Shown here: one piece after another, positions 454 to 24,836 of the stretch
Position numbering within the stretch: position 1 is the first letter of the stretch
Layout: every line of letters begins with the position of its first letter
Assembly: GCF_035254505.1 (NCBI RefSeq)
Contig: NZ_DATFAO010000091.1
Coordinates: 2,538 to 42,537, forward strand
Direction of reading: 5' to 3'
DNA: 40,000 nucleotides
Source of the DNA: Aromatoleum sp.
GTDB lineage: Bacteria > Pseudomonadota > Gammaproteobacteria > Burkholderiales > Rhodocyclaceae
Made by a program: the position numbers and the translations under genes
The notes under the pieces: model-generated
Databases searched by the model: none
What the model was told of the DNA's origin: nothing
Seen by the model: only the letters and a program-made list of their open reading frames with translations

Positions 454-530
454 CTGCCCGTAGCTCAATTGGATAGAGCACCGGCCTTCTAAGCCGGGGG
501 TTGCAGGTTCGATCCCTGTCGGGCAGGCCA
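454..530 (+). tRNA. tRNA-Arg (anticodon UCU)
   Basis: Acceptor stem CTGCCCG/CGGGCAG, D-arm AGCTCAATTGGATAGAGC, anticodon loop cTTCTAa, T-arm GCAGGTTCGATCCCTGT, discriminator G plus CCA. Confidence 0.93.
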
Positions 531-571: not shown

Positions 572-648
572 GGCGGCATTAGCTCAGTTGGTAGAGCACT
601 GGATTGTGGCTCCAGTTGTCACCGGTTCGATCCCGGTATGTCGCCCCA
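572..648 (+). tRNA. tRNA-His (anticodon GUG), copy 1, with encoded G-1
   Basis: G-1 at 572 pairs with C73. Acceptor stem GCGGCAT/ATGTCGC, anticodon loop aTTGTGGc, T-arm ACCGGTTCGATCCCGGT, CCA end. Confidence 0.93.
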
Positions 649-662
649 AGCTACGCCAAGAG

Positions 663-689
663 CAGGCGCCTTCGGGCGTCTGTTTTGTT
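663..689 (+). terminator. Rho-independent terminator-like hairpin after tRNA-His copy 1
   Basis: 8-bp stem caggcgcc/ggcgtctg with a ttcg loop, followed by ttttgtt. Confidence 0.6.
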
Positions 690-724
690 CTTGTTAGTGG
701 TGCATTGTCCGCATCAACGAAAGT

Positions 725-801
725 GGCGGCATTAGCTCAGTTGGTAGAGCACTGGATTGTGGCTCCAGTTGTCACCGGTTCGATCCCGGTATGTCGCCCC
801 A
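725..801 (+). tRNA. tRNA-His (anticodon GUG), copy 2; integration target of the island
   Basis: 77 nt identical to copy 1 by eye. The downstream flank differs from that of copy 1, consistent with an island-derived flank. Confidence 0.93.
757..801 (+). repeat. attL-like core: 45-bp 3' half of tRNA-His copy 2
   Basis: ttgtggctccagttgtcaccggttcgatcccggtatgtcgcccca is repeated exactly at 24750-24794. Confidence 0.85.
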
Positions 802-814
802 AAAACAAAGAGAT

Positions 815-839
815 ACGGCACCCTTCGGGGTGCCGTTTT
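815..839. terminator. Hairpin plus T-tract between tRNA-His copy 2 and the integrase 3' end; possibly a bidirectional terminator
   Basis: acggcaccc-ttcg-gggtgccgt followed by tttc. On the opposite strand the same hairpin is followed by a T-rich run (atctctttgttttt). Confidence 0.6.
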
Positions 840-875
840 CAATACTGAGCTCGATTTTCAAAACTTCTTGCCGCT

Positions 876-1499
876 TTATTCCAGCGGGTTGGCCTTCTTC
901 ATGCTCCTGCGGTCATAGACTTTTTCGACGATCGATTCGGATGCGTGCCCGGAAAGCGATTTCGCATCTCGCCCAGCGGCTTTCAAGTCGGTCACGGTTT
1001 TCGCCCGATTGTCGTGAAAGTGGAATCGCTCTGAAATTGCGTTTTCGGCGATGGCTTTATCCATCGTTCGACCCCAGGCCGTTTTCCGGCCTTCAAGCGT
1101 CATCGGTGATCCATCGCGGCTTGTTACGAGCTGGGTGCTCGAAATTGGCCGCTTGATTTCCGTCAGCGCTTTTATTGGGAAGGGGGCCAGGCAATGCAGA
1201 TCTGGACCGGCGGTGTGCGTGCTGTCTTGCTCGCGGACGGGGTTGTCCTTGCAGTGGCCCCACATGATTGCGTGGCGCATTACGTCCTGCAGCAGTGAGC
1301 GCTCGCGGTTGGCACGGACCTTCGATGTCTTCGCGCGGGCCTGCACGAAATCCCATACGTCGGCCGCAGTGATGTCAGCTGGCTTCATCGACCCGAAGAC
1401 CTTCGTCAGCGTCGAAGGTTCGAGTTTGTTGCTCGCTTGGGTGGTCTTGGCTTTCTCGGGAACGACTTCCTTCAGGTAGCGGCCTATCACGCCCGACAT
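876..1499 (-). pseudogene. Tyrosine recombinase/phage-type integrase, truncated or degenerate (207 aa)
   Basis: The N-terminal SAM-like core-binding region (YLKEVVPEKAKTTQ..VRANRERSLL) and the C-terminal HxxR...Y segment (FHFHDNRAK...GHASESIVEKVYDRR) are recognisable. The segment that should carry the first catalytic Arg and Lys is missing, as is an arm-binding N-terminus. An in-frame TAG lies 12 codons upstream of the ATG. Confidence 0.7.
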
Positions 1500-1534
1500 C
1501 GTCTCTGCCGGCGCATTCGTGTTTTCGAATTCAG

Positions 1535-1820
1535 CCTATTTCGTCCGAGCAACGGACAGATCGCGCCCGAGATTGATCCATCCGCCCCTTGCGGCATACC
1601 AATACGACCGCCCTTTGAGGGGGCAAGCACCACGGCGCGTAGAGCCAGCCCTCGGCCGCCCACAGGTAGGTGAAGTCCGCGACCCATTTCTGGTTCGGGC
1701 CTGCCGCCCGAAATTCGCGATTCAGGACGTTGTCGGCGATGGCGCTGCGAATTCCCCGGTCCTGCGGCAACCCGCGCCGACGTGGACGGGCCCGCAGCGC
1801 ATGCCCACGCATGCCGTTCG
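1535..1820 (-). pseudogene. IS3-family (IS407-like) transposase orfB internal fragment
   Basis: ALRARPRRRGLPQDRGIRSAIADNVLNREFRAAGPNQKWVADFTYLWAAEGWLY is typical of the IS3 orfB N-terminal region. It has no start, no DDE core and no terminal repeats. It may continue in another frame below about 1635; boundaries are approximate. Confidence 0.55.
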
Positions 1821-2514
1821 ATGCGGCGTAGAGCACAGTGATGACTGCCAGCACGAAGGCGAATGCCGCGACGGACTTGCCGAGAATGATGATCGCCAGC
1901 ACACCCAGCACGTGCCATGGCTGTTCCACCAGAATCGCGGGATCGAACAGCATGCCCACCGACACGAAGAAGAGCACGGAAAACGCATCGCGCAGCGGCA
2001 AGGACTCTTCCGCCGCACGATGGCTGAATTCCGACTCGCGCATGACCATGCCAGCGAAGAAGGCTCCCAGGGCAAACGAGACGCTGAACAATGCAGCCGC
2101 CCCGTAGGCAATGCCAATGGCACTTGCGATGACCGCGAGCGTAAACAACTCGCGCGGGCCGGTGCGCGAAACTTGCCACAGCATCCAGGGCAGCACGCGC
2201 CGGCCGGCGATCAGCATCAGGGCCAGGAAGGCGCCGACTTACAGCAGCGTTTGCCCGATGGTGATCCACAAGGGCTTGGCAGCCGCTGCCTGGACGGTCT
2301 CTGAACCGCCCAGGACGCCGGCCAGCGGCGGCAGCAAGACCAGGACCAGCACCGTGGCGAGGTCTTCAACGACCAGCCAGCCCACGGCGATGCGACCATT
2401 CATGCTTTCCAGCACGCCACGGCTCTCCAGGACCTTGAGCAGCACGACGGTGCTGGCGCACGACAGCGACAAGCCGAAGATCAAGCTGCTGCCCCACCTC
2501 CAGTCCCATCCCCA
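1821..2514 (-). pseudogene. YbaL/KefB-type monovalent cation:proton antiporter, internal fragment with an in-frame stop
   Basis: GLSLSCASTVVLLKVLESRGVLESMNGRIAVGWLVVEDLATVLVLVLLP ... GRRVLPWMLWQVSRTGPRELFTLAVIASAIGIAYGAAALFSVSFALGAFFAGMVMRESEFSHRAAEESLPLRDAFSVLFFVSVGMLFDP. An in-frame TAA lies at 2239-2241, and both termini are missing. Confidence 0.7.
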
Positions 2515-3050
2515 CGCGTCGCGGAAGGCGGCTTGGACGAGCGCCTCGTAGTCGGCCACTGCGACGTCGCGGCGCGCCTCGGCGAGCTCCAGGTTGGCTC
2601 GGTTGCGGCCGCCGTCGAAGAGCGGCAGACGCAGGGCCGGGGTGAAGCTCCAGCTAGCGCTGCCGCCGCGGAAGAGGCCGTCAAGCTCGGCACTGGCGGT
2701 ACCGGCAAAGCCGGTCAGGGTGATGTTGGGGAAGAAAGCGGCGCGGGCGGCACGGACGCTGGCGCGGCTGGCGGCGAGGCGTTGCTCGGCCGCGCGGATG
2801 TCCGGGCGACGGGTCAGGAGTTCGGCCGGCAGGCCGGGCTGCAGTTCGCGTTCCAGACCCTGGTCGGTGAGGGGAGCGGGCGGTGGGTGCTGTCCGGCCG
2901 TATAGCCGGTGAGCTGGGCAAGCAAGGCCTCGTTCTGCGCCGCCTGGCGCCGCAGCGCCGCGAGCTCGACGCGCGTGCCGACGAGGAGGGTTTCCACCTG
3001 GCGCAGCTCCATATCTCTACCAGGTTCCCCGTCAGTCCGTGCGCCGCCAC
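2515..3050 (-). pseudogene. NodT/OprM-family efflux outer-membrane factor, internal fragment
   Basis: ELRQVETLLVGTRVELAALRRQ...LPAELLTRRPDIRAAEQRLAASRASVRAARAAFFPNITLTGFAGTASAELDGLF..SWSFTPALRLPLFDGGRNRANLELAEARRDVAVADYEALVQAAFRD aligns with the second half of OprM-type OMFs. It lacks the lipobox/N-terminus and the last roughly 70 aa. The upstream boundary is uncertain. Confidence 0.7.
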
Positions 3051-3189
3051 CGATGGGATGCGGCTCGAGTCGGACCACGTGTGCGAGCCCAGGTTAAAGG
3101 TGGCGGGGGCGATGACATGGCGCACTGCGCCGATGTGACGCTAGTTCACTTGCGTTGCGCCCCGGGAGGTGCCGGCGGCCGGGGAAGGT

Positions 3190-3735
3190 TCAGCGCGCGC
3201 GGGGGATCTGCGCGAGGTAGTCGTTCTTCAGGCGGACGTAGTGCTCGGCCGAGTAGCGCAGGAAGACGCGCTCCTCCGGAGTGAGCGGGCGGACCGGCAC
3301 GGCCGGCCGGCCGACGTAGAGGTGGCCGCTTTCGAGGCGCTTTCCGGGCGACACCAGGCTGCCGGCGCCGAGGATGACTTCGGGGCCGATCACGGCGTCG
3401 TCCATGACGATCGCGCCCATGCCTATCAGACAGGCGTCGCCGATCGTGCAGCCGTGCAGGATCACCGAATGGCCGATCGTGACGTGGCTGCCGATGACGA
3501 GTGGCGAGCCGTCCGGCTTGGCCGCGTTTCGGTGCGACACGTGGCACATGGTGAGGTCCTGCACGTTGCTGCAGGCGCCGACGATGATGCTGTTGACGTC
3601 GCCGCGCAGTACCGTGTTGCACCAGATCGAGACGTCGCGACCCAGGCGCACGTCGCCGATCACCTGGGCGGAGTCGTGGATGAAGACACCCTCGGCGAGC
3701 GTGGGCGTGATGCCACGAAGGGAATCGATGGACAT
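3190..3735 (-). CDS. Gamma-class carbonic anhydrase-like / hexapeptide-repeat (YrdA/PaaY/CaiE family) protein
   Basis: MSIDSLRGITPTLAEGVFIHDSAQVIGDVRLG... shows left-handed beta-helix hexapeptide periodicity and family His residues (MCHVSH, IGHSVILHGC). Start chosen at ATG 3735 with GAGGAAG 5 nt upstream; the 262-aa ORF-track version is an Arg-rich extension. Confidence 0.85.
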   Translation of the reverse strand: MSIDSLRGITPTLAEGVFIHDSAQVIGDVRLGRDVSIWCNTVLRGDVNSIIVGACSNVQDLTMCHVSHRNAAKPDGSPLVIGSHVTIGHSVILHGCTIGDACLIGMGAIVMDDAVIGPEVILGAGSLVSPGKRLESGHLYVGRPAVPVRPLTPEERVFLRYSAEHYVRLKNDYLAQIPRAR

Positions 3736-3806
3736 GTTCTTCCTCCGATGCGATCTAAATCGTGCCGGGACTCGCCGCTCGGCCGACCGGCGCGCGCAGG
3801 ATCCGC

Positions 3807-4352
3807 TCAGCGCTTGATTGCGGCGAGCGGGTCGTCCGGCTTGTAGGTCGGCGTAACCGGTCTCGGCGAACCCAGCATGACACACATCAGCGCCTCCTCG
3901 TCGCCGACGTTCTGTTCGCCGCGATAGACGCCGGGCGGTACCGAGATCAAGTCGCGCTCGCCGACCACCGCCTCCCACCTCTCCCCCTCGGGCGACTCGC
4001 AGAACACCTTCACCTTGCCGCGCAGCACGAAGAAGATCTCCTCGGTGTCCGTGTGCAGGTGTAGCGGGCCCGTGTGGCCGACCGGGATCTTCATCGTCGA
4101 AAAGGTGAAATGCACGGCCGGTACGACGTTGCCATCGGAATGCACGCCGGTGCCGCCGGTGCCGACGTAGCGCATCTGCGCGCGCGCATAGGTGGGATCG
4201 ACCTCGGTCTGGAACTTCAGCGCGTTCCAGTCGTAGCTGCGCGTCGAGCGCAGCACGCAGCGGGAATTCATCCAGTCCTCGAATGACGCGCCGTTCGGAC
4301 GCTGCAGGGTCCGGCTGGCTTCTTCGGTCAGGTTGGCGATGTGGTCGTTCAT
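3807..4352 (-). CDS. Cupin-domain protein
   Basis: Cupin motif GHTGPLHLHTDTEEIFFVLRG ... PPGVYRGEQNVG. Start at ATG 4352, preceded by GAGGAGGA. Confidence 0.75.
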   Translation of the reverse strand: MNDHIANLTEEASRTLQRPNGASFEDWMNSRCVLRSTRSYDWNALKFQTEVDPTYARAQMRYVGTGGTGVHSDGNVVPAVHFTFSTMKIPVGHTGPLHLHTDTEEIFFVLRGKVKVFCESPEGERWEAVVGERDLISVPPGVYRGEQNVGDEEALMCVMLGSPRPVTPTYKPDDPLAAIKR

Positions 4353-4493
4353 GCTTCCTCCTCGGGTTTGGCTTCGTCTTGCGCTCGTTCTTTTCGACCT
4401 CGCCACGCGCCCGTCGGGGGCGCTCCGGTCTCGGTGTCGAAAAGGAAAAATCGGCGGTGCCGCGAACGTGGTGCGGGCGTCAGTACGCCAGAT

Positions 4494-4777
4494 GTTCCAC
4501 TGGTGAAACAACAGGTTACCTACGGAACAACGCAACCCTAGTTCCGTCGCGCAGGGCGTGGCAATTGCGGAAACTACGAATTGACAAACGCAGGAACTTT
4601 AGTCTTCGAGCTTCGCCCTTGGGTCGAAGGTGATGCGCCCTTCTTGCGGTGGAGTGCCTGCAGCTTATCCGCGCTTGCCCATCAGTACGACGCAAATAAA
4701 TAGTCAATCAGGGATAACCCTAATTGATTGCACTAGTGCGACGCGAGTAGCGTTCGAGTCGTTCCAAGCAAGGAACG
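4494..4777. promoter_or_regulatory. Cluster of palindromes in the 502-bp divergent control region; candidate operator sites
   Basis: GTTCCAC-tg-GTGAAAC (4494-4509); CGGAAC-N12-GTTCCG (4523-4546); CAATcAGGGataaCCCTaATTG (4705-4726); CGTTCC-aagcaa-GGAACG (4760-4777). All were read directly from the sequence. The binding protein is unknown. Confidence 0.3.
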
Positions 4778-4854
4778 TTGTTTCATAGGTAAAACAAACC
4801 GGCAGCAACATGCCGGCACAGACGACAAGAACACGCACACCGCGAGAGGAGAAC

Positions 4855-5718
4855 ATGTTCATCAAGCATAAGTACGCCGCGACCGCCCTGCTCGCAGGGC
4901 TCGGCGCGACGGCGTCGATTCCCGCCCCTGCCGCCACCTGGTCCGACGCGATGGTCGGCTACCGCGTCGGCAACGACTTCCACGACCCCGGCATCGACGA
5001 CGACGTCCGCAAGAACATCGTCCAGTTCAGCTACGTCGGCGGCTACAGCTATGGGCAGAACTACTTCAACCTCGACGTCCTGAACTCCGACAGCGCCGAT
5101 CCGGCCAATGGTAGCCGAAACGGCGCGACCGAGTTCTATGCCGCGTACCGCCACCAGCTGCATCTCGGCAAGCTACGCGACGCGCCGATCGCGTTCGGTC
5201 CGGTGAAGGACGTCGCGATCACCGCGGGCCTCGACCTGCAGACCAAGAACAACACTTTCGCGCCGCGCAAGCGCATGTTCGTCGTGGGCCCGACGCTGAA
5301 GTTCGACGTGCCCGGCTTCCTCGACGTGAGCCTGCTGTACGCGCAGGAATGGAACCACTGCGGCCTGCCGGCGTGCCGCAGCGTGCCCGGCTTCAGTACC
5401 GACATCAAGTTTGATCCCTATCCGCGCCTCGAGGTTGCGTGGGGCATCCCCTTCGAGCTCGCCAGGTTGCCTTTGAAATACCAAGGGTTCCTGGCCTACA
5501 ACGGCAGGAAGGGCAAGGATTATTTCAAGAAGGAAACCGGCAGGGAAATGCTGTTCCGCTCGGCCCTGATGCTCGATGTCGGGCAGCTCGCGTTCGGCAA
5601 GAAGAACACCTTCCTGATGGGCGTGGGCTACGAGTTGTGGCGCAACAAGTTCGGCAACCGCGACATCCCCGGCGTGGACACCGACACCGCAACGCTCAAC
5701 GCGGAGTTCCACTTCTGA
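4855..5718 (+). CDS. Outer-membrane beta-barrel channel (Tsx-like / nucleoside-specific-channel-like family)
   Basis: Signal peptide MFIKHKYAATALLAGLGATASIPAPAA, alternating amphipathic strands, aromatic girdle residues, C-terminal ...LNAEFHF. GAGGAG lies upstream of ATG 4855. Family assignment is by resemblance only. Confidence 0.7.
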   Translation: MFIKHKYAATALLAGLGATASIPAPAATWSDAMVGYRVGNDFHDPGIDDDVRKNIVQFSYVGGYSYGQNYFNLDVLNSDSADPANGSRNGATEFYAAYRHQLHLGKLRDAPIAFGPVKDVAITAGLDLQTKNNTFAPRKRMFVVGPTLKFDVPGFLDVSLLYAQEWNHCGLPACRSVPGFSTDIKFDPYPRLEVAWGIPFELARLPLKYQGFLAYNGRKGKDYFKKETGREMLFRSALMLDVGQLAFGKKNTFLMGVGYELWRNKFGNRDIPGVDTDTATLNAEFHF

Positions 5719-5840
5719 TTCCCGGCTCTCCCCCGTCCGCGCAGCTGCAGCAGCGATGGCGGCCGGGCGAGCCCCTTGTACCGGACCACCGCGCAGCCGA
5801 GCTGCACCCACCGTCTCGTTGCAGTGTTTGAGGAAAAGTC

Positions 5841-6710
5841 GTGATCGAGATCGAATCCCGCAACACCCGCCGCCTGTCCTCCCCGCAGGGGGAGGCCGGC
5901 CGCCCCAGTACCGGCGAGGATCTGGACGTCCAGATCGAGTTCCGCAACGTCAGCAAGCGCTTCCCGACGAAGCGCGAACCGAATCCGCCCTACGCCGTCA
6001 AGGATCTGAACATCCGCATCCGCGCCGGCGAAGTGGTCTCCATCGTCGGCCCCAGCGGTTGCGGCAAGAGCACGCTGCTGAACATGGGCGCCGGGCTCTA
6101 CCTGCCCAGCGAGGGCGAGGTGCATGTCGCGCAGCAGCGCGTGACTCGGCCGGTAAAGCAGATTTCCTTCATGCTGCAGAAGGACCTGCTGATGCCCTGG
6201 CGCACGATCCGCCAGAACGTCGAACTGGGGCTGGAGATCGACGGCGTCGCGCGCGAGCGGCGCCGCGCGGTGGCGCTTGAGCTGATCGCCAAGTGTCACC
6301 TCGTCGGTTTCGAGAACCACTACCCGTACCAGCTCTCGGGCGGCATGCGCCAGCGCGCCGCGCTCGCCCGCACGCTGGCGACCGATCCGCAGGTGCTGCT
6401 GCTCGACGAGCCGTTCTCGGCGCTCGACGCGCAGACCAAGATGGTGCTGCAGCAGGATCTTGCGCAGATGCTGTATGACGCGAAGAAGACCGCGCTCTTC
6501 ATCACCCACGACCTGGTCGAGGCGATCGCGCTGTCCGACCGCCTGCTGGTGATGAGCCACCGGCCGGGCACGATCATCGAGGAGATCACCGTGCCGCTGC
6601 CACATCGCAACAACCCGCTCGAGCGCCGCAAGCTCCCCGAGGTCGGTCCGCTCGTGAGCCGCCTGATGGAGCTGCTGCGGGTCGGCCAGGACGGCCTGGA
6701 AGGACACTGA
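5841..6710 (+). CDS. ABC transporter ATP-binding protein (NitT/TauT family)
   Basis: Walker A GPSGCGKST, Q-loop, signature LSGGMRQR, Walker B LLLDEPFSALD, H-loop. GTG start with GAGGAA upstream. Confidence 0.9.
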   Translation: MIEIESRNTRRLSSPQGEAGRPSTGEDLDVQIEFRNVSKRFPTKREPNPPYAVKDLNIRIRAGEVVSIVGPSGCGKSTLLNMGAGLYLPSEGEVHVAQQRVTRPVKQISFMLQKDLLMPWRTIRQNVELGLEIDGVARERRRAVALELIAKCHLVGFENHYPYQLSGGMRQRAALARTLATDPQVLLLDEPFSALDAQTKMVLQQDLAQMLYDAKKTALFITHDLVEAIALSDRLLVMSHRPGTIIEEITVPLPHRNNPLERRKLPEVGPLVSRLMELLRVGQDGLEGH

Positions 6711-6765
6711 GCGCGCACCGGGCGCGCCGCCTACAAAACATAAAGACACCCCACAGGAGACGAAC

Positions 6766-7758
6766 ATGAGATCCACCCTGCGCAAACTCGCCGGCTCCGC
6801 GCTCGCGGCCGCGAGCCTCACCACGACCCTGCCCGCGGCGGCGGTCGCCAAGGAGAACGTCACTTATCTGCTGCCCGCGCCCCCCACGCTGCCCGCGTTC
6901 GCGCCGTGGATCGTCGCGAAGCAGAACGGCTATTACGACGCCGCGGGCCTCAACGTGACCTTCGTCGCCGCGCGCGGCGGCGTCGACGTCGCCAAGCAGA
7001 TCGGTTCGGGCAACGCGATCGTCGGCGGCGCGATCGGCGACACGCCCATCATCGTGCGTGCCAACGGCGTCCCGGTCCGGGCCGTGGCAGTGCTGGGCGG
7101 CGGTTCGCTGACGATGATCGCGGCGACCAAGGCCTCGGGCGTGAACAACGTCAAGGATCTCGCCGGCAAGACGATGACCGTGATGTCTTACGCCGACACG
7201 ACCTATTACGCGCTGCTCGGCTCGCTGAAGCTCGCCGGTCTCGACAAGCAGAAGGTCGCGGTGCAGGCGTCGGGGCCGGCCGGCGTGTGGCAGATGCTCG
7301 CCGGCGGCCAGGTCGCGGCGATGGCGGGGGTACCGGACTGGGTGGTCAGTGCGCAGGAGGCGGGCGGCGACATCCACCTGCTGCCCGCCGAGCAGCAGTT
7401 CAAGAGCATGGGGCAGGCCATCCTCGCCTCCGATGAGGCGATCCGGAAGCAGCCCGAGCTTTTGCGCAAGCTGGTGCAGGCGACGCTGCACGGCATGAAG
7501 GACATCATGGACGACCCGGCGGCCGCCGCGAAGTCCTTCGCAGCCGCGGTTCCCGCCTACCAAGGCAAGGAGGCGACGCTCGTCGCGGTCTTCCGCCTTT
7601 ATGGCAAGCACGTCTATCCGGGCCAGGAGACGCTCGGGCTGATCGACGCGAAGCGTCTGAAGGAAGTGCAGGACTTCTATCTCGCCGAGGGCATCGTGCA
7701 GCGCGCGACCCCGGTCGAGGACCTCTACACCAACCAGTTCGTGAAAACGGGCCAGTGA
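6766..7758 (+). CDS. ABC transporter periplasmic substrate-binding protein (NMT1/THI5-like, SsuA/TauA-type)
   Basis: Signal peptide ...LPAAAVA/KE and NMT1-like fold signature (APWIVAKQNGYYDAAGLNVTFV...). AGGAGA RBS. Confidence 0.9.
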   Translation: MRSTLRKLAGSALAAASLTTTLPAAAVAKENVTYLLPAPPTLPAFAPWIVAKQNGYYDAAGLNVTFVAARGGVDVAKQIGSGNAIVGGAIGDTPIIVRANGVPVRAVAVLGGGSLTMIAATKASGVNNVKDLAGKTMTVMSYADTTYYALLGSLKLAGLDKQKVAVQASGPAGVWQMLAGGQVAAMAGVPDWVVSAQEAGGDIHLLPAEQQFKSMGQAILASDEAIRKQPELLRKLVQATLHGMKDIMDDPAAAAKSFAAAVPAYQGKEATLVAVFRLYGKHVYPGQETLGLIDAKRLKEVQDFYLAEGIVQRATPVEDLYTNQFVKTGQ

Positions 7759-7777
7759 TTCCGGGAAGCATAGCGCC

Positions 7778-8551
7778 ATGAACAATTCTTCCACGCTCTG
7801 GGGCAGCGCCGTGCTGCTCGCACTGACGCTTTCCCTGTGGCAATGGGCGCCCGGCTGGGTCGGCCTGCCCGAGTACATCTTCCCGACCCTCTCCAGCACG
7901 GTCGAGCAGGCGGGCCGGATGTGGTCGGAAAGCCAGCTCCTCCAACATTTCGGCGTCACCGCGCTGGAGGTCGTGCTCGGCTTCGTGCTGGGCTCGCTGC
8001 TGGGCATCGCGGTCGGCGTCGCGCTGGGCCTGTCACCGACTGCCGAGGCGATGCTCTCGCCCTACATCCTCGCGCTGCAGATCGCGCCGAAGGTCGCGTT
8101 CGCGCCGCTCTTCGTGATGTGGCTGGGCTACACGATGTACCCGAAGATCCTCGTCGCGATCCTGATCGTGTTCTTCCCGGTGATGGTCAACGTGCTGGCG
8201 GCGATCCGTACCGTCGATCCGGACATGGTGAACCTCGTGCGCACCCTCAACGCGACGCGCTGGCAAATCTTCACTCTGCTCGAGTTCCCGTCGGCGCTGC
8301 CGAACCTGTTCTCGGGCCTGCGCATCGCCTCGACGCTGGCGGTGATCGGCGTGACGGTCGGCGAGCTGGTCGGCGGCAACCTCGGTCTGGGCTTCCTGCT
8401 CGTCGCCTCCGAAGGGCAGGGCGACACCGCGGGGGTGTTCGTCGCGATCACCGGGCTGACCATCATCGGCATTGTCGCCTACGCGGCGGTGATCCTGATC
8501 GAGAAGAAGGTGTTGCACTACATGCCCAAGGCAAGCCGGACCACGGTGTGA
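7778..8551 (+). CDS. ABC transporter permease (NitT/TauT family)
   Basis: Six predicted TM segments and an EAA-like loop (LNATRWQIFTLLEFPSALPNLFSGLRIA). Confidence 0.9.
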   Translation: MNNSSTLWGSAVLLALTLSLWQWAPGWVGLPEYIFPTLSSTVEQAGRMWSESQLLQHFGVTALEVVLGFVLGSLLGIAVGVALGLSPTAEAMLSPYILALQIAPKVAFAPLFVMWLGYTMYPKILVAILIVFFPVMVNVLAAIRTVDPDMVNLVRTLNATRWQIFTLLEFPSALPNLFSGLRIASTLAVIGVTVGELVGGNLGLGFLLVASEGQGDTAGVFVAITGLTIIGIVAYAAVILIEKKVLHYMPKASRTTV

Positions 8552-8553
8552 GG

Positions 8554-9318: not shown

Positions 9319-9333
9319 GGCGGGGCGACGGAC

Positions 9334-11011: not shown

Positions 11012-11021
11012 CGGGGGAGCG

Positions 11022-14321: not shown

Positions 14322-14329
14322 GAAACGCC

Positions 14330-15832: not shown

Positions 15833-15898
15833 GCAATCGTCACGGGGCGCGACAGGCGCCCCGGAAGAAATACAGAGAGAATGAGAGGAGACAGCATC

Positions 15899-16873: not shown

Positions 16874-16950
16874 GGGGCCGACAAACCTTTATTTCACGCC
16901 ATCGCCGCGGCATGCACCCGCAGCGAGTCAATCACGAGGAGACATCACAT

Positions 16951-17181
16951 ATGTGTATCGCAAACCGGCCGCTCTATCTCGAGCCGCACCAGGCCCGCAG
17001 CGCGGCGCCGACCCCCTTCGAGGACCTGCTGGGCGACGCGATCGAGCGCGCCTACGCTCAGGGCATCCACGAGCTGGAGTCCTTGGTCGCCTATCTGAAC
17101 CAGTCCGGCCCCAGCGCGCCGAACGGCTCGCAGTGGACGACCGAGCTGTTCTGCGCCGAGATGGCCCGCCTCGGCGCCTGA
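16951..17181 (+). CDS. 76-aa conserved hypothetical protein (recombinase-like HTH-type small protein)
   Basis: ACGAGGAG RBS and host-like codon usage; lies between the VOC and Rieske genes. From memory, homologues are annotated recombinase-like helix-turn-helix domain proteins. Function unknown. Confidence 0.6.
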   Translation: MCIANRPLYLEPHQARSAAPTPFEDLLGDAIERAYAQGIHELESLVAYLNQSGPSAPNGSQWTTELFCAEMARLGA

Positions 17182-17216
17182 GCGCCGCGACTCGATAACG
17201 AATCGGAGATACCAAA

Positions 17217-18245
17217 GTGAGCACCAAGGAAATCGACCCCATCGACGAATACCTCGCGGACGGCCTGAAGGACCGCTGGTACGCGATCTGCCCGTCCAGC
17301 TTCGTCACCGACCGCGCCATCAGCCTGCGCCGCCTCGGCCTCAAGCTCGCCCTGTGGCGCGATCCCGCGAGCGGAACGATCCACTGCCTCGAGGACCACT
17401 GCCCGCACCGCGGCGCGCCGCTGTCGGTCGGCGTCGTGCTGGGCGACCGCATCGCCTGCGCCTACCACGGCGTCGAAGTGCGCTGCGACGGCGTCGTCAC
17501 GCGCGTGCCCGGCAGCCCGGGATGCAAGCTCGAAGGCTCGCGCACGACACGCTCGTACCACGTGCAGGACGCCGCCGGCATGATCTTCCTGTACAACGCC
17601 GCGAGCCCCGTCGAGGTGCCGCCGCCGCTGGAGCTGCCCGAGTACCTCGCCTCGCCCGAGTGGAGCAGCTTCCACTCCTACATGGAGTGGAAGAGCGACT
17701 ACCGCTACGTCGCCGACAACGTCATGGACCCGATGCACGGCGCCTACCTGCACCGCCAGTCGCACTCGATGTCTGAAGGCGACATCTCGGCCGACTTCGT
17801 GATCCGCGACACCGACCACGGTTTCTTCTTCGAGAAGAAGGGCCAGCGCAACGTGAACTTCGACTGGACCGAGCTCCACGACGACGGCAAGCTCATGTAC
17901 CACCGCCTCGAGATCCCCTACCCGAAGACTGGCGGCCCCGGCGGCAACTTCACCATCATCGGCATGTACGTTCCGATCACGCGCGACACCTGCGGCGTCG
18001 TGTTCTGGCGCTGCCGCAAGCTGGGTGGCTGGCAGCGCGACGTGTGGCGCTTCCTGTACAAGAACCGCCTTGAGGCGCGGCACTGGGAAGTCGTCGAACA
18101 GGACCGCACGACGCTCGAGCTGATGGAGCCCGATGCGTGCGAGCGCGAGTTCCTCTACCAGCACGACATGGGTCTCGTGCGCCAGCGGCGCTACATGCGC
18201 AGCATCGCGGCAGAGCAGATCGAGGCCGCCCAGTCGGCCCGCTGA
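17217..18245 (+). CDS. Rieske non-heme iron oxygenase, alpha-only (phthalate/VanA-type, class IA)
   Basis: Rieske CPHRGAPLS...CAYHG; mononuclear iron motif DPMHGAYLH. GTG start with GGAGA upstream. Confidence 0.9.
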   Translation: MSTKEIDPIDEYLADGLKDRWYAICPSSFVTDRAISLRRLGLKLALWRDPASGTIHCLEDHCPHRGAPLSVGVVLGDRIACAYHGVEVRCDGVVTRVPGSPGCKLEGSRTTRSYHVQDAAGMIFLYNAASPVEVPPPLELPEYLASPEWSSFHSYMEWKSDYRYVADNVMDPMHGAYLHRQSHSMSEGDISADFVIRDTDHGFFFEKKGQRNVNFDWTELHDDGKLMYHRLEIPYPKTGGPGGNFTIIGMYVPITRDTCGVVFWRCRKLGGWQRDVWRFLYKNRLEARHWEVVEQDRTTLELMEPDACEREFLYQHDMGLVRQRRYMRSIAAEQIEAAQSAR

Positions 18246-18296
18246 GCGGGTCGCCCACACGACGGGCCGTCCGCATACCGGACGGCCCGCGAGCCG

Positions 18297-19268
18297 ATGG
18301 ATATCGAGATGACTACAGACGAAACCGTGACGATGCGCGTCGAGGCCATGCGCTACGAGGCCGAGGGCATATTGAGCATCGAACTGGCCGCCCCCGACGG
18401 CGCCGAACTGCCCGTGGTGGCTGCGGGCGCGCACGTCGACCTCTTCCTCCCCAACGGAATCGCGCGCAGCTACTCGCTGGTCGTGCCGCGATCCTCGCCG
18501 CGCGCCTACGTCGTCGGCGTGCTGCTCGACCGCTCGAGCCGCGGCGGATCGCGCTACATCCACGAGCAGCTGCGCGTCGGCCAGGAGATCCCGGTGTCGC
18601 GCCCGCGCAACCATTTCGTCCTCGACGAGGATGCGGGCGACACCGTGCTGCTCGCGGGCGGCATCGGCATCACGCCGATCTACAGCATGTACGCGCGCCT
18701 CGTCGCGCTGGGGCGGCCGGTGCGCCTGCTCTATAGCGTGCGCTCGCGCCGCCAGGCCGCGTTCGCGCGCGACATCGAGCGGCTCGGCGGCGCAACCGAC
18801 TGGCACATCGACGACGAGGCGGGCGGCCCGCCGGACCTCAAGGCCTACCTTGCAAGGTTCGACGTCAAGGCGCATTTCTACTGCTGCGGGCCGACACCGA
18901 TGATCGACCGCTTCGAGGCGGTGTGCGAGGAGCTCGGCTATCCCAACGTGCATGTCGAACGCTTCGCCGCGCGCACCGACCAGGCGCCCGCCGAAGCCGG
19001 TGGCGCCTACGAGCTCGTGCTCCAGCGCAGCCGCCGCAGCCTGCACGTCGCCGCGGGCGAGTCGCTCATCAGCGTGCTGCAGGCGAACCGTATCGAGGTG
19101 CCGTTCAACTGCCAGGAAGGGGTGTGTGGCTCGTGCGAGACGCGCATCATCGAAGGCGAGGCCGACCATCGCGACTCGGTGCTGAGCAAGGCCGAGCGGG
19201 CGGCCAACAAGAGCATGATGGTGTGCGTCTCGGGCTGCAAGGGCGCGCGCCTGGTGCTCGATCTCTGA
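18297..19268 (+). CDS. PDR/VanB-family oxidoreductase (FMN, NAD and plant-type 2Fe-2S)
   Basis: RSYSL flavin motif, GGIGITP NAD motif, C-terminal CQEGVCGSC...C ferredoxin. Confidence 0.9.
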   Translation: MDIEMTTDETVTMRVEAMRYEAEGILSIELAAPDGAELPVVAAGAHVDLFLPNGIARSYSLVVPRSSPRAYVVGVLLDRSSRGGSRYIHEQLRVGQEIPVSRPRNHFVLDEDAGDTVLLAGGIGITPIYSMYARLVALGRPVRLLYSVRSRRQAAFARDIERLGGATDWHIDDEAGGPPDLKAYLARFDVKAHFYCCGPTPMIDRFEAVCEELGYPNVHVERFAARTDQAPAEAGGAYELVLQRSRRSLHVAAGESLISVLQANRIEVPFNCQEGVCGSCETRIIEGEADHRDSVLSKAERAANKSMMVCVSGCKGARLVLDL

Positions 19269-19292
19269 GCGGCCGGCGGGCGGGAGAGGGCG

Positions 19293-20078
19293 ATGCAAAT
19301 CTGCGTCGCGCAGTCGTGGAGCGACCTGCAGGCGCTGCTCTTCGAGGGCGCGTGGAACGAGCGCATCCTTCGCTACCGCTCGCCCTGCGCTTTCCGCGGC
19401 CTGGACGATGCGGGCCATCGCCTTGCGACCAGCCTCGCCCGGCTGGGCGGCGACAGCGCGCGGCTCGAGCGCCATCTGATCCGCAACTTCATCAAGTACG
19501 CCCACCGCGACGTCGTCGAGCGCGACTCCCTGTGGCACTGGCTCTCGGTCGCGCAGCACCACGGCCTGCCGACGCGCCTCCTCGACTGGACGCACTCGCC
19601 ACTGGTCGCGATGCACTTCGCGACCGCCCGCGCCGAAGCGATGGAGTGTGACGGCGCGATCTGGTCCATCAACTACGAGCGCGCCCACCGCCTGCTGCCC
19701 GCCGTGGTGCGCGACGCGCTCGACCGCGAGGGGGCGAACGCCTTCACGACCGAGATGCTCGCGCACACCGTGACGACGCTGGACAGCCTCGAGGCCATGT
19801 CCGCGCAGTCCTTTCTGCTGTTCTTCGAGCCGCCGTCGATCGACGACCGCATCGCGAACCAATACGCGCTGTTCTCGGTGATGTCCTCGGCGGCGGCCGG
19901 CGTGGACGACTGGATCGCGCGGCACCCGGCGCTGTGCCGCAAGATCGTCGTGCCGGCGGCCCTCAAGTGGGAGATCCGCGACAAGCTCGATCAGTGCAAT
20001 ATCACCGAGCGGGTGCTGTTCCCCGGGCTGGACGGCCTGAGCCGCTGGCTGGCGCGTCAGTACCGTGCGCGTGCCTGA
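19293..20078 (+). CDS. FRG-domain protein
   Basis: AFRGLDD motif, SVAQHHGLPTRLLDWTHSPLVAMHFA, RIANQYALFSV, LFPGLDG. These are the hallmarks of the FRG domain (PF08867, function unknown). Confidence 0.8.
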   Translation: MQICVAQSWSDLQALLFEGAWNERILRYRSPCAFRGLDDAGHRLATSLARLGGDSARLERHLIRNFIKYAHRDVVERDSLWHWLSVAQHHGLPTRLLDWTHSPLVAMHFATARAEAMECDGAIWSINYERAHRLLPAVVRDALDREGANAFTTEMLAHTVTTLDSLEAMSAQSFLLFFEPPSIDDRIANQYALFSVMSSAAAGVDDWIARHPALCRKIVVPAALKWEIRDKLDQCNITERVLFPGLDGLSRWLARQYRARA

Positions 20079-20409
20079 GGGGTCCCCGCCCCGGGGCGCG
20101 ATTCTGCCCGGATGGCATGGATCGCGCGGGTCGGCCGCGAGCGCGGCGATGACGGCCCCTTGGCCGCGACGATCCGCGGTACTGGCCGTAGTCGACAGCC
20201 GCGGCGCGACCTCGGAGTGTGTGCAGTTGCCGCCGGCGCGATGGGGCACCAGCAGCGGCGCCCAAAGGAGGGCGGGCGATCACGGTGAGGGGGCCGGCCA
20301 GGTAGGGTATCGAGGCAGAGCAGCCCTCGCGAAGGGGGGCGCTGCGAGAGGATGAGTCCGCAGCCGTCTCCAGCCCGGACCGACTCGTTGCTGCCGTTGG
20401 CGGCGGTGC

Positions 20410-20814
20410 TTAGGGCAGGGTGACTTGCTGCCCGTCCGGGCGATAGGTCAGCAGATGCTTGACCACTCCGCCCTGAATCGACTTGACCATGGTTTCCAGT
20501 GCCTGCTGCGTCGCCTCGTCGCTCGGTTCTCTGCGTCCTTGCCCGCTTAGGCAGCCGACAAACACCATGTCCCAGGATTGTCCGGTGTGGCGCGATTCTT
20601 CCACCAGTTCAGCGAAGCTCTGGATTTCGTTGGTTTTCTTGTCTACGTACATCACGGGAACGAGCGCGCCCCCCTGACCATTTTCAAAGATCCGCTTTTC
20701 TTCTGCAGAGGCGCCTTCAGGCAATTCGGCCCGCACGAAAACGAACAACAAACGCTGCGGCTCGGGTTGCCGGCGAGCAGTCTCCAAGAGATTTTGAAAC
20801 CCTGAAATGATCAT
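20410..20814 (-). CDS. Conserved hypothetical protein (134 aa)
   Basis: Clean ORF with lower GC than its neighbours. The sequence (QPEPQRLLFVFVRAELPEG...GQGGALVPVMYVDK...SFAELVEESRHTGQSWDMVFVG) resembles, from memory, a small family common in Pseudomonas/Burkholderia that is sometimes mis-annotated. Confidence 0.65.
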   Translation of the reverse strand: MIISGFQNLLETARRQPEPQRLLFVFVRAELPEGASAEEKRIFENGQGGALVPVMYVDKKTNEIQSFAELVEESRHTGQSWDMVFVGCLSGQGRREPSDEATQQALETMVKSIQGGVVKHLLTYRPDGQQVTLP

Positions 20815-20907
20815 CTTTCCGTACTTCCCTTCCTGTCGTCAGGAAGCGAATTCTGTCACAAAACCACGAAGGGGCAACGAGAGTGAATCGCCGGGGGCGG
20901 GATGCGA

Positions 20908-21109
20908 CCATGGCCTTCGTCACCGCGCGGTAGTAGTCCTCGCCCGATCCGGTCAGCGTGATCTGGCGATGGCCGCGGTGCAGCAGTCGGATGCCGAGCG
21001 TTTCCTCGAGCGACCGGATCTGCCGGCTGACGGCGCCGGGCGTGACGTGCAGTTCGTCGGCGGCGACGGTGTCGGCATGGTGGCAGCGCAATTCCTGTCG
21101 AAGCGTGGG
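20908..21109 (-). pseudogene. LysR-family regulator, N-terminal HTH fragment only
   Basis: AADELHVTPGAVSRQIRSLEETLGIRLLHRGHRQITLTGSGEDYYRAV is a LysR wHTH. There is no start region and no effector domain. Confidence 0.65.
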
Positions 21110-21118
21110 GGAGTGGTC

Positions 21119-21499
21119 AGAACGCTGCGCATCGGGCTCGGCATCTCGTTGGTCTCGGCGCTCGCGGCGCTGATGGTGGCCGCGGGCTCGCAACCGACAC
21201 TGCTCCAGCTGCTCCTGCCGCAGCTGCCGCTGGCCTTCGGGGCTGGTCTCGTGATTCCGAGCGCCATTGCCGGCGCAGTGACGCCCCAAGGTCAGCGCGC
21301 GGGGCTCGCGGCCGGATTGCTCGGCTGTCTGCAAATGTTCGGCGCTGCGCTGTTCGGCTACGTCGCAGTGCGACTCTATGCGGGAACGGCGGTGCCGATG
21401 CTGGCGATCCAGGTCGGTGCGTTCGCACTCGCCGCAGCCGTGATGCTGCTGATCCATCGCCAATCACCGGACGCCACCGCGGCGCGGCAGTCAGTGTAG
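21119..21499 (+). pseudogene. MFS (Bcr/CflA-like) transporter, C-terminal fragment
   Basis: LRIGLGISLVSALAALMV...PLAFGAGLVIPSAIAGAVTPQGQRAGLAAGLLGCLQMFGAALFG covers only the last roughly 4 TM segments. It abuts the LysR fragment head-to-head with no intergenic region. Confidence 0.6.
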
Positions 21500-23401
21500 C
21501 GTCGCGTGGAACATGTCTTCGGGCAGATGCCAGCTCGCGAACTCCTCCGCGGGCAGCGGCTGGCTGATGAAGTAGCCCTGGGCAACGTCGCACTTGAGCG
21601 CGGCCAGGCGGGTCCATGTCGCCTGGTCCTCGACGCCTTCGGCGATCACGCTGAGGCCCAGGTCGTGGCCGAGGTCGATCGTCGAGCGCACGATCGCGTC
21701 CGAGCCTTCGTGCTCGAGCATGCGGCCGACGAAGGACTGGTCGATCTTGATCGAGTCCGTCGGCAAGCGCTGCAGATAAGTGAGGCTGGAAAAGCCGGTG
21801 CCGAAGTCATCGATCGCGAGGTGGACGCCCAAGTCCCTGAGGCGCTTGAGCGTCTCGAGCGACCCGCGCGGATCCTCCAGCAGTGCGCTTTCGGTGATTT
21901 CGAACTGGACGTTCCCCGCGTCGACGCCCCAGGTGAGGAAGAGCCCGCGGATGCGGTCCACGAGGCGGGAGTCGAGGAGGTCCCTCGTGGATAGGTTGAT
22001 GGCCAGCGGTACCGCGATGCCGTCGGACTGCCAAGTGTAGACCTGTCGAAAGGCCTCGCCCAGCACCCAGTTCGTGAGCGGTGTGATCAGGCCGGCCTTC
22101 TCAGCCATCTTGATGAAGCGGTCCGGCCCGATCAGCCCGTGCTCGGGATGGGCCCAGCGCACCAGCGCTTCGGCGCCGCAGGGGATGCCGGTGGCGATGT
22201 CGACCTTGGGCTGGCAGTACAGGCGCAGTTGCTCGTCGGCGATCGCGTGATGCAGCTCGGCGACCAGCGACAGGTTGCGGTTGCAGTCGCGGTCCAGGTT
22301 TCCGGTGAAGATGGCGAAGTTGCCTGGGCTCTGGCGTGCCTCGCGCGAAGCCAGCGCCGCACGTCGCATGAGGGCGTCCGGGCCGGGGCCGTGGCCGGGG
22401 AACAGCGCGATCCCGACGCGCGGCCGCGCGTCGATTGCGAAGCCGGACAGTTTGAGCGGTTGGTCGAAGGCCGCGAGAACGCGGACTGCTCTCTGCCCCG
22501 CGCGCTCGGCGTCAGTGTCGCGCCACAGCACTGCAAACTCGTCGTCGCTGACCCGCGCGAGCAGGTCCTCGTCGTCGAGAAGAGGGCGCAGGATTGCCGC
22601 AGCCTGGACCAGCAGTTCGTTGCCGTGCTGCGCCCCGAGCAACTCGTTGACCTCGCGGAACTGGTCGAGCGCGACGATGCTGACGGCAAACGGGCGAGGC
22701 GTTCGCGGCGATCGCGCGATCAACTCGCCGAGTCGTTTGTGGAACAGCGAACGGTTGGGCAGGTCGGTCACCGGGTCGTACAGGGCCACGCGCTGCAAGG
22801 CCGCTTCGGCCTCCAGCTGGCGATTGCGCGCGCGGAGGGCTCCGATGCCGAACGCCACGTCCTCGGCAAGTTCGCTGAGCACGTTGACCTCCTCGTTCCC
22901 GAAGGCGTCCTTGTCGCCGGCGATGATGGTGAGATTACCCTCCACCTGGCCGTCGATGATCAACGGAAAGGCACTTACGGCCACGTAGCCGCGTTTGCGC
23001 TGCTCGGCGTGCAGGAATGCGAGCGCGGGATCCTCCTGCACGAGATGGCTCACGCGCGGTGCGCCGCTGCGGATCGCGAGTGCCGTGGGATGCTTGATTT
23101 CGTCGGCCCACGACAGCGGGAAAAACTCCCAGATCCCTTCCTCGGCCCCAGCACACGCCATCATCCGGATGGTCCGTTTCTCGTCGCGGTCCGCGTAGCC
23201 GATCCATGCCATGCGGTAACCGCCCTGATCGACGATGGCGTGGCACATGTCCTGCAGCAGGGCTTCTTCGTCGACCGCGCGCGCAAGCGTCCGGTTGCCG
23301 GCGCTCAGCGTCTTCAAGGCCCGGTACAGGCGCTTGTAGTCCTCGATGGACACGCAGGCCGCTTCAGGGGGCCGCGTGCTTTCGTCCTTGGCTCCGTCCA
23401 T
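21491..23401 (-). CDS. GAF sensor, degenerate GGDEF and EAL domain protein (probable c-di-GMP phosphodiesterase)
   Basis: The GGDEF signature reads RVSDDEF. The EAL domain is complete (EALVRW, N, EITE, DDFGTGFSS, KIDQSF, EGVE, QGY). Start at ATG 23401 with AGGAGG upstream. Confidence 0.9.
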   Translation of the reverse strand: MDGAKDESTRPPEAACVSIEDYKRLYRALKTLSAGNRTLARAVDEEALLQDMCHAIVDQGGYRMAWIGYADRDEKRTIRMMACAGAEEGIWEFFPLSWADEIKHPTALAIRSGAPRVSHLVQEDPALAFLHAEQRKRGYVAVSAFPLIIDGQVEGNLTIIAGDKDAFGNEEVNVLSELAEDVAFGIGALRARNRQLEAEAALQRVALYDPVTDLPNRSLFHKRLGELIARSPRTPRPFAVSIVALDQFREVNELLGAQHGNELLVQAAAILRPLLDDEDLLARVSDDEFAVLWRDTDAERAGQRAVRVLAAFDQPLKLSGFAIDARPRVGIALFPGHGPGPDALMRRAALASREARQSPGNFAIFTGNLDRDCNRNLSLVAELHHAIADEQLRLYCQPKVDIATGIPCGAEALVRWAHPEHGLIGPDRFIKMAEKAGLITPLTNWVLGEAFRQVYTWQSDGIAVPLAINLSTRDLLDSRLVDRIRGLFLTWGVDAGNVQFEITESALLEDPRGSLETLKRLRDLGVHLAIDDFGTGFSSLTYLQRLPTDSIKIDQSFVGRMLEHEGSDAIVRSTIDLGHDLGLSVIAEGVEDQATWTRLAALKCDVAQGYFISQPLPAEEFASWHLPEDMFHATLH

Positions 23402-23716
23402 GTTCCGCCTCCTTGCAGCCCGATGACCGAGGGGGCCCGCGAGGCGGCACCCGCGCAAGCGTTCATCCCCGTCGCGAAGAGACGCATGAACCACTCCGCA
23501 AAGCGCCTCATTTCTTAGTCAGGGAAGTCCGCGGTGCGTTCCATCGTGGCTTGCGCTGACTTGAGTAAAGCTCAAGCAAGTCCGTGTGATTTATCGATTG
23601 TCGCGGCTTTGTCGGAAAGCAACCATGCCGCATCGTGAACATCTCCCCACGGGCGTGGCTCGGCGGCGAAGGGCGGGGTGGCCCTGATCACGGTGACGGG
23701 AAGCAAGGTTCCTGCA

Positions 23717-23774
23717 TGTACATCCGTCGTATTTACAAGATAGTTCTCCCAGACTAGTGTACATACATCGTACA
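23717..23774 (+). promoter_or_regulatory. Candidate vapBC promoter/operator with repeated TGTACA motifs
   Basis: TGTACA at 23717-23722 and 23758-23763 and GTACA at 23770-23774, within 80 nt upstream of vapB. AbrB-type antitoxins usually autoregulate at such repeats. Confidence 0.4.
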
Positions 23775-23793
23775 TCCACCGCAGGAGCTTCCC

Positions 23794-24030
23794 ATGCGCA
23801 CCACGCGCGCATTCAAGAACGGCAATTCACAGGCCGTGCGCATTCCATCGGACCTGGCTTTCGAACGCACCGACATCGAGCTGGAAATCGAACGCGTTGG
23901 CGACGAGTTGCGCATTCGTCCCGCTCGTCGGTCTCTCGCTGGTGTGATGGCCAAGTTCGCGAGGTTCTCCCCGGACTTCATGGCTGAAGGTCGCGGCGAT
24001 CAGGAGCAAGCCGAAAGGGATTCGCTGTGA
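23794..24030 (+). CDS. vapB: VapB antitoxin (AbrB/SpoVT-type)
   Basis: MRTTRAFKNGNSQAVRIPSDLAFE...LRIRP...FSPDFMAEGR is a typical VagC/VapB. Confidence 0.88.
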   Translation: MRTTRAFKNGNSQAVRIPSDLAFERTDIELEIERVGDELRIRPARRSLAGVMAKFARFSPDFMAEGRGDQEQAERDSL

Positions 24031-24446
24031 TGGCGCGGTACATGCTCGACACCAACATGTGCATCTATCTGATGAAGAACCATCCCGAGGAGGTCGCTCG
24101 ACGTTTTGCCCAGTGCTATGTGGGGGATGTCGTGATGTCAGCAATCACCTTTGCCGAACTTCAATACGGCGTAGCGGCCTCGGCCGATCCGGAGCGCGAG
24201 CGCGCCAATCTCGACGACCTCGCTCAGGATATCCCCGTCATGCCGTTTGATGCCGAGGCTGCACTTGCGTATGGCCCGATCCGACTGGCCTCTCGCGAGA
24301 GCAAGAAGGATCATCTCGACAAGTTGATTGCAGCCCATGCGGTGGCGCTCGGCGTTACGGTCGTCACCAACAACACGAAGGACTTCGCAAGGTACCTCGA
24401 AGTGGTGACGGAGAACTGGCTGACGCCAACGGAACCGGAGCATTGA
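24027..24446 (+). CDS. vapC: VapC PIN-domain ribonuclease toxin
   Basis: YMLDTNMCIYLMKN ... ITFAELQYG ... DKLIAAHAVALGVTVVTNNTKDF contains the PIN acidic residues. The more likely start is ATG 24030, which overlaps the vapB TGA by 1 nt. Confidence 0.9.
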   Translation: MMARYMLDTNMCIYLMKNHPEEVARRFAQCYVGDVVMSAITFAELQYGVAASADPERERANLDDLAQDIPVMPFDAEAALAYGPIRLASRESKKDHLDKLIAAHAVALGVTVVTNNTKDFARYLEVVTENWLTPTEPEH

Positions 24447-24749
24447 CTGCCGACGGAGAGCTTCAACGTGGTGGAGACTACTGTTCAGCCTCTCAGTGTC
24501 ATGGGGGACCCATCGGATCTTGCCGAGGATGCGGCCGTGCGGCTGCTCTCGCCGATCGATCCGAGTGGTGATTACTTGGTAGCATCCGGTGGTGACTGTC
24601 GTGTGGATAAGGACATCGGCATCAGCCAGCTTACACCCGACGGCCTTTGAAAACTCCGCCGTAGTTCCGCGCCGTCACTGGGTTTGGCGCGGCGTTGTGT
24701 TGAAATAAAAGTGACGTAAGTGTTTGATTTACTAGCTTAGAACCCGGTC

Positions 24750-24794
24750 TTGTGGCTCCAGTTGTCACCGGTTCGATCCCGGTATGTCGCCCCA
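24750..24794 (+). repeat. attR-like core: displaced 3' half of tRNA-His, not a functional tRNA
   Basis: 45/45 identical to 757-801. Identity stops at 24749 (c here, a in the tRNA). The upstream sequence cannot form D-arm or acceptor 5' strands. Confidence 0.85.
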
Positions 24795-24807
24795 AGCTAC
24801 AGCAAAA

Positions 24808-24836
24808 ACAGGCGCCTTCAGGCGCCTGTTTTGTTT
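24808..24836 (+). terminator. Rho-independent terminator; the original tRNA-His copy 2 terminator, displaced by the island
   Basis: acaggcgcc-ttca-ggcgcctgt followed by tttgttt. The flank from 24795 resembles the flank after tRNA-His copy 1 (649-690). Confidence 0.6.

What the first reader, a model, noticed from the sequence alone, without database searches (positions are those of the whole stretch)
572..24836. Exact 45-bp tRNA-His 3'-half repeat brackets a roughly 24-kb island inserted into the second of two tandem tRNA-His genes
The 45 nt at 757-801 (anticodon stem to CCA of tRNA-His copy 2) recur exactly at 24750-24794. At that second site the upstream sequence cannot complete a tRNA. The flank after the displaced half (24795-24836, aagctacagcaaaaacaggcgccttcaggcgcctgttttgttt) is clearly paralogous to the flank after tRNA-His copy 1 (649-689, aagctacgccaagagcaggcgccttcgggcgtctgttttgtt). 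The flank after copy 2 (802-840) is unrelated. The simplest reading is an ancestral tandem tRNA-His pair, each with the same type of terminator. An element then integrated site-specifically into copy 2, regenerating the tRNA at attL and displacing the original 3' half and terminator to attR. Spot G+C counts of single 60-nt lines fit a foreign, mosaic origin: 45/60 at 13501-13560 (island centre), 31/60 at 20581-20640 (island right arm) and 36/60 at 28201-28260 (core).
Basis: partly seen in the sequence, partly recalled or inferred. Interest (0 to 1): 0.7.

Follow-up and report, generated by a model that had tools for sequence, protein, structure and literature searches.

The report
Decayed genomic island in tRNA-His gene
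A 24-kb piece of foreign DNA once inserted itself into a histidine tRNA gene of an Aromatoleum bacterium and has since lost its own mobility genes. This is a textbook kind of genomic island, correctly spotted but not unusual.

Summary
tRNA-His bases 32-76 (757-801) recur exactly at 24750-24794; with the next A the identity is 46 bp. No tRNA can be completed at the second site. The flank after it is a paralogue of the terminator after tRNA-His copy 1.

Next to copy 2 lies the remnant of a tyrosine integrase gene (876-1619, minus strand). Its intact 337-aa relatives (84-88% identical) sit with an excisionase at the same dksA/tRNA-Pro/Arg/His site in Azoarcus sp. CIB and three other genomes. The 74 bp after copy 2 are nearly identical to the integrase-side arm there, and to the attP of a T7-like phage contig. 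The 42 bp left of the displaced half resemble that attP's other arm more weakly.

Three refinements:
- The integrase is dead (5' truncation, stop codon, 190-nt deletion, frameshift), and there is no excisionase.
- The composition break lies at about 1620 and 23400, not at the att sites. The block between is high-GC DNA with a Cupriavidus/Ralstonia-type catabolic cluster and gene fragments.
- No empty site was found. The adjacency of tRNA-His and DUF59 is lineage-specific.

Verdict: an ordinary, immobilised tRNA-integrated island; low novelty.

The parts
1..179 (-). 5' part of a dksA-type gene, cut by the window edge; left-hand core flank
   Evidence: Translation. Homologues carry DksA_N and lie next to tRNA-Pro/Arg/His and pnp-rpsO-truB in relatives.
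310..338 (+). sigma-70-like promoter ahead of the tRNA cluster
   Evidence: 10 of 12 consensus match. A consensus match only.
349..530 (+). tRNA-Pro(TGG) 349-425 and tRNA-Arg(TCT) 454-530
   Evidence: ARAGORN. Same order in CIB, L088-L090, L098 and L100-L102.
572..648 (+). tRNA-His(GTG) copy 1, with encoded G-1
   Evidence: ARAGORN. Identical to copy 2.
649..695 (+). native trailer 'AAGCTAC' plus intrinsic terminator T1 (hairpin 659-686)
   Evidence: Terminator scan; fold -19.6 kcal/mol. The AAGCTAC trailer is conserved after unoccupied tRNA-His genes.
725..801 (+). tRNA-His(GTG) copy 2, regenerated at attL
   Evidence: ARAGORN.
757..802 (+). attL core: 46-bp direct repeat, tRNA positions 32-76 plus one base
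   Evidence: Exact identity with 24750-24795. 100% identical to the tRNA-His of CIB-type genomes.
802..875 (+). element-derived attL arm with a bidirectional hairpin terminator (815-836)
   Evidence: Nearly identical to the arm between tRNA-His and the intact integrase in CIB and L088, and to the attP arm of phage contig L094. Fold -21.4 kcal/mol.
876..1619 (-). tyrosine integrase pseudogene
   Evidence: Pfam Phage_int_M plus only the C-terminal half of Phage_integrase. Against the 337-aa P0139: residues 1-17 missing, a stop at the W45 position, residues 148-209 deleted (190 nt), a local frameshift at 1178-1231 and small deletions.
1620..3078 (-). gene fragments at the left edge of the high-GC block: Na+/H+ exchanger pieces and an OEP piece fused in one ORF
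   Evidence: Partial Pfam matches: Na_H_Exchanger 184-310 of 375 and 98-171 of 375; OEP 6-106 of 187. Not orthologous to the Na+/H+ exchanger near DUF59 in CIB.
3190..5718 (.). hexapeptide-repeat transferase (about 3190-3800, -), cupin protein (3807-4535, -) and a 302-aa protein with no family match (4810-5718, +)
   Evidence: Pfam. No NCBIfam or PHROG match for 4810-5718.
5841..8551 (+). ABC transporter: ATPase, SsuA/NMT1-type binding protein, permease
   Evidence: Pfam and NCBIfam.
8575..19268 (+). catabolic cluster of unknown substrate: SDR, alpha/beta hydrolase, IclR regulator, SDR (PRK07062), TPP enzyme (PRK07064), aspartate dehydrogenase, aldehyde dehydrogenase, VOC/extradiol-type protein, HTH_62 protein, VanA-like Rieske oxygenase, VanB-type reductase
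   Evidence: Pfam and NCBIfam. About 77% nucleotide identity to Cupriavidus and Ralstonia megaplasmid or chromid clusters with the same gene set.
19293..20078 (+). FRG-domain protein
   Evidence: Pfam; phrog_4962, unknown function.
20717..21463 (-). LysR-type regulator remnant (helix-turn-helix only)
   Evidence: Pfam HTH_1 only, no substrate-binding domain.
21491..23494 (-). GAF-GGDEF-EAL cyclic-di-GMP signalling protein; right edge of the high-GC block
   Evidence: Pfam. G+C drops at about 23400.
23794..24446 (+). VapB (MazE-type antitoxin, 23794-24030) and VapC (PIN toxin, 24027-24446) pair
   Evidence: Pfam. The genes overlap by 4 nt. Core-like G+C.
24704..24749 (+). element-derived attR arm
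   Evidence: 81% identical together with the core to A. petrolei L082 14965-15049. Weaker resemblance to the left arm of the L094 attP.
24750..24795 (+). attR core: displaced 3' part of tRNA-His
   Evidence: Exact repeat. No tRNA predicted here.
24795..24841 (+). original trailer and terminator of tRNA-His copy 2
   Evidence: 37 of 44 identical to T1. Fold -22.8 kcal/mol.
25079..25396 (+). DUF59 (FeS_assembly_P) gene, first core gene on the right
   Evidence: Pfam. Synteny DUF59 - membrane protein - UPF0114 (a DUF2189 gene instead in A. diolicum) - glnD - map - rpsB in four relatives.

Best explanation
The interval 802-24749 is the remnant of an integrative element whose tyrosine integrase recombined its attP with tRNA-His copy 2.

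How it arose. The attP contained a copy of tRNA-His positions 32-76. Recombination most likely took place in the anticodon loop; this step is inferred. The element's own copy of the 3' part now completes the tRNA at attL, followed by the element's hairpin terminator and the integrase gene. The original 3' part and its terminator were pushed 24 kb away, to attR.

What happened afterwards. The element decayed. The integrase gene lost its first 17 codons and acquired a stop codon, a 190-nt deletion that removes the first catalytic arginine region, and a frameshift. The excisionase gene and any backbone genes are gone.

The interior. The interior from about 1620 to 23400 is a high-GC block. It carries a Burkholderiaceae-type catabolic gene cluster, an ABC transporter, a cyclic-di-GMP protein and several gene fragments. 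Either this block replaced the original interior or it was its cargo.

Outcome. Only the two ends (integrase module; VapBC pair plus attR arm) keep the G+C of the host genus. The island is now fixed in place unless a related integrase and excisionase act on its intact att sites in trans.
For: - Repeat: exact 46-bp direct repeat that starts at the anticodon loop.
- Integrase: the remnant lies next to attL, and intact 337-aa homologues (84-88% identical) sit at the same dksA/tRNA-Pro/Arg/His site in CIB, CP021731, L089 and L090, each preceded by a DUF4224 excisionase.
- attL arm: 802-875 is nearly identical to CIB's arm.
- attP: phage contig L094 carries arm, tRNA-His 3' half and arm. Its T-stem differs from the window's on both strands, which I read as compensatory changes showing a copy of another host's tRNA-His.
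- attR: a homologous, degenerate attR lies next to DUF59 in A. petrolei.
- Native trailer: AAGCTAC follows unoccupied tRNA-His genes.
- Pseudogene lesions.
- Composition: the G+C and tetranucleotide shift is confined to about 1620-23400.
- Cargo: homologous to Cupriavidus and Ralstonia clusters.
- No internal att remnants and no large internal repeats.
Against: - No empty site, meaning two intact tRNA-His genes followed directly by DUF59, was found in any relative.
- In CIB the tRNA-His locus and DUF59 are 437 kb apart. A. diolicum and A. tolulyticum have other genes next to DUF59 and no tRNA remnant. A rearrangement or large deletion in this lineage is therefore also needed.
- The tandem tRNA-His was seen in no other genome.
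- The sequence comes from a metagenome-assembled genome, so a misjoin inside the island cannot be excluded.
- Whether the high-GC block arrived with the element or later is not resolved.
Confidence: 0.85

Rival explanations
1. The island is still mobile. Its att sites are intact, so a related integrase and excisionase encoded elsewhere in the same genome could excise and move it in trans, like a mobilisable or satellite island.
For: The two 46-bp cores are exact and both arms are preserved. Intact integrase-excisionase modules of this family circulate in the genus and in a phage.
Against: No such module is present in the 40-kb window. The island contains no transfer, replication or packaging genes by Pfam or PHROGs. 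The rest of the genome could not be searched.
Confidence: 0.1
2. The high-GC interior was joined to the Aromatoleum ends by a metagenome assembly error, so the 24-kb island as written does not exist in one cell.
For: The window comes from a metagenome-assembled genome. The composition changes abruptly at about 1620 and about 23400, inside the interval and not at the att sites. The nearest relatives of the interior are Burkholderiaceae.
Against: - Two separate misjoins would be needed.
- There is no repeat at either boundary to cause one.
- The left boundary falls inside a gene that carries other independent lesions.
- Mosaic interiors are usual in old islands.
Confidence: 0.04
3. The second tRNA-His 3' half is a decayed third tRNA-His gene of a local tandem array, and the genes in between are native. 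No mobile element was involved.
For: The tRNA-His unit has been duplicated locally at least once.
Against: - The fragment is exact and starts precisely at the anticodon loop.
- Both neighbouring arms match the attP of an integrase family.
- An integrase remnant sits at the expected place.
- The interior is compositionally and phyletically foreign.
Confidence: 0.01

Closest known systems
tRNA-gene-integrated genomic islands, as defined and catalogued by Islander (PMC4383910)
   Same: A tyrosine integrase targets a tRNA gene. The island restores the gene, and the regenerated gene and its displaced 3' fragment mark the two ends. The integrase gene lies at the tRNA end.
   Different: Here the integrase is a pseudogene and the excisionase is missing, so this is a fossil island and not an active one.
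Unnamed integrase-excisionase element next to tRNA-His in Azoarcus sp. CIB (CP011072, about 2.914-2.925 Mb) and in CP021731, JAHHGN010000034 and WTVS01000011
   Same: Same chromosomal site (dksA, tRNA-Pro, tRNA-Arg, tRNA-His). Integrase 84% identical to the CIB-type protein P0139 in the best-aligned segment (up to 88% for other family members). Near-identical attL arm and identical 46-bp core.
   Different: Those copies have an intact 337-aa integrase, a DUF4224 excisionase and a KfrA/DUF3577/DUF3275/DUF6094/SNF2 backbone, none of which survives in the window. They sit at a single tRNA-His gene, not a tandem pair.
T7-like phage contig L094 (Logan SRR23882321_7740)
   Same: Same integrase-excisionase module (68% identity to the window remnant across alignment A2). 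Its attP has a tRNA-His 3' half flanked by arms that match the window's attL arm closely and its attR arm weakly.
   Different: It is a phage genome with terminase, tail, holin and endolysin genes. Its tRNA-His copy differs in the T-stem on both strands, which I read as a match to another host's tRNA.
ICE_XTD of Azoarcus sp. CIB and the ICEclc family
   Same: tRNA-integrated elements that carry aromatic-compound catabolic genes in the same genus (PMC9960961, PMC8704644).
   Different: ICE_XTD integrates into tRNA-Gly(CCC) with a 23-bp repeat, is 174 kb long and encodes a type IV secretion system (PMC8704644, PMC9960961). The window island has none of these.
Catabolic gene cluster on Cupriavidus pauculus plasmid NZ_CP033971 (171.7-179.4 kb) and on Cupriavidus, Ralstonia and Caballeronia replicons
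   Same: Same gene set at about 77% nucleotide identity: hydrolase, HTH_62 protein, Rieske oxygenase, SDR, IclR, SDR, TPP enzyme, aspartate dehydrogenase, aldehyde dehydrogenase, VOC protein, VanB reductase.
   Different: The gene order is rearranged. The window has an ABC transporter where those clusters have an MFS transporter. The substrate is unknown in both.

Membership tests
tRNA-integrated genomic island (Islander definition) | Intact tRNA gene at one end, regenerated by island sequence | tested here: met
   tRNA-His copy 2 (726-801) is intact and identical to copy 1. The sequence directly after it is element-derived.
tRNA-integrated genomic island (Islander definition) | Displaced 3' fragment of the same tRNA as a direct repeat at the other end | tested here: met
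   24750-24794 equals tRNA positions 32-76 exactly. No tRNA is predicted there.
tRNA-integrated genomic island (Islander definition) | Tyrosine integrase gene inside the island, next to the tRNA end | tested here: met
   The gene is present at 876-1619 on the minus strand, 75 bp from the tRNA, but only as a pseudogene.
tRNA-integrated genomic island (Islander definition) | Absence from related genomes (empty site) | tested here: inconclusive
   No relative has the 24-kb content, but none shows the empty tandem site either. CIB-type genomes are occupied by another element. A. petrolei has only a degenerate attR. A. diolicum and A. tolulyticum have different neighbours of DUF59.
tRNA-integrated genomic island (Islander definition) | Foreign composition | tested here: met
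   G+C is 0.65-0.74, and the 2-kb windows starting at 6001-18001 are closer in tetranucleotide use to the island centre than to the core. The two ends (802-1620 and 23400-24749) are core-like.
Active tyrosine recombinase (Pfam PF00589) | Complete catalytic domain with the first arginine, lysine, H-x-x-R, histidine and tyrosine in one open frame | tested here: not met
   The segment that holds the first arginine (ARLTGQRRGDLL in homologues) is deleted. There is also a premature stop, a frameshift and a 5' truncation. The Pfam score of 22.2 is below the cut-off of 27.1.
Integrative and conjugative element (ICEclc / ICE_XTD type) | Relaxase and type IV secretion genes; integration into tRNA-Gly | tested here: not met
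   No such domains in any island ORF. The target here is tRNA-His, whereas ICE_XTD uses tRNA-Gly(CCC).
Prophage | Phage structural, packaging or lysis genes | tested here: not met
   No Pfam match to such genes in the island ORFs scanned. The six island ORFs also scanned against PHROGs gave only unknown-function families or no match.

The most novel reading that the evidence does not exclude
The interval between tRNA-His and the DUF59/glnD block may be a long-lived integration hot spot of the genus Aromatoleum. It would be served by an undescribed tRNA-His-specific integrase-excisionase module that is shared by a T7-like phage and an island backbone. Through this spot, whole catabolic clusters would be swapped. 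Two cases fit: the Burkholderiaceae-type oxygenase cluster here, and in A. petrolei possibly the anaerobic toluene (bss) genes, which lie directly beside a degenerate attR of the same type.
Probability: 0.3. Interest if true: 0.4.

Novelty: new member of a known kind. Interest (0 to 1): 0.2.

Why it matters
It adds one more well-delimited example of how catabolic genes from Burkholderiaceae reach aromatic-degrading Rhodocyclales, and of how such islands become fixed once their integrase decays. The integrase-excisionase module and its tRNA-His attachment site could help annotators delimit related islands and prophages in Aromatoleum, Azoarcus and Thauera genomes. Nothing here changes how tRNA-targeted integration is understood.

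Tried and rejected
- **Empty site through DUF59.** A species-wide genome scan gave 80 loci with at most 65% identity. None of the 21 checked had a tRNA-His nearby.
- **Empty site through glnD neighbours.** Synteny in A. diolicum, A. petrolei, A. tolulyticum and CIB ends just before DUF59, with no tRNA.
- **Empty site through the dksA fragment.** It found only small DksA_N proteins from distant relatives. One had tRNA-Pro and tRNA-Arg split by insertions and no tRNA-His.
- **Metagenome scan for tRNA-His end plus native trailer.** It gave only more distant relatives with a single, unoccupied tRNA-His.
- **Exact-protein look-ups.** The window's GlnD and VapC were not on record. The contig carrying the 88%-identical integrase P0138 ends before the tRNA.
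- **Viral-contig scan with the intact integrase.** No match.
- **ICE_XTD as the CIB element.** Rejected, because ICE_XTD is in tRNA-Gly(CCC).
- **Island Na+/H+ exchanger fragments as remnants of the exchanger gene near DUF59 in CIB.** Rejected, with no similarity by tblastn.
- **Internal att remnants or IS-type repeats that would indicate tandem accretion.** None found.
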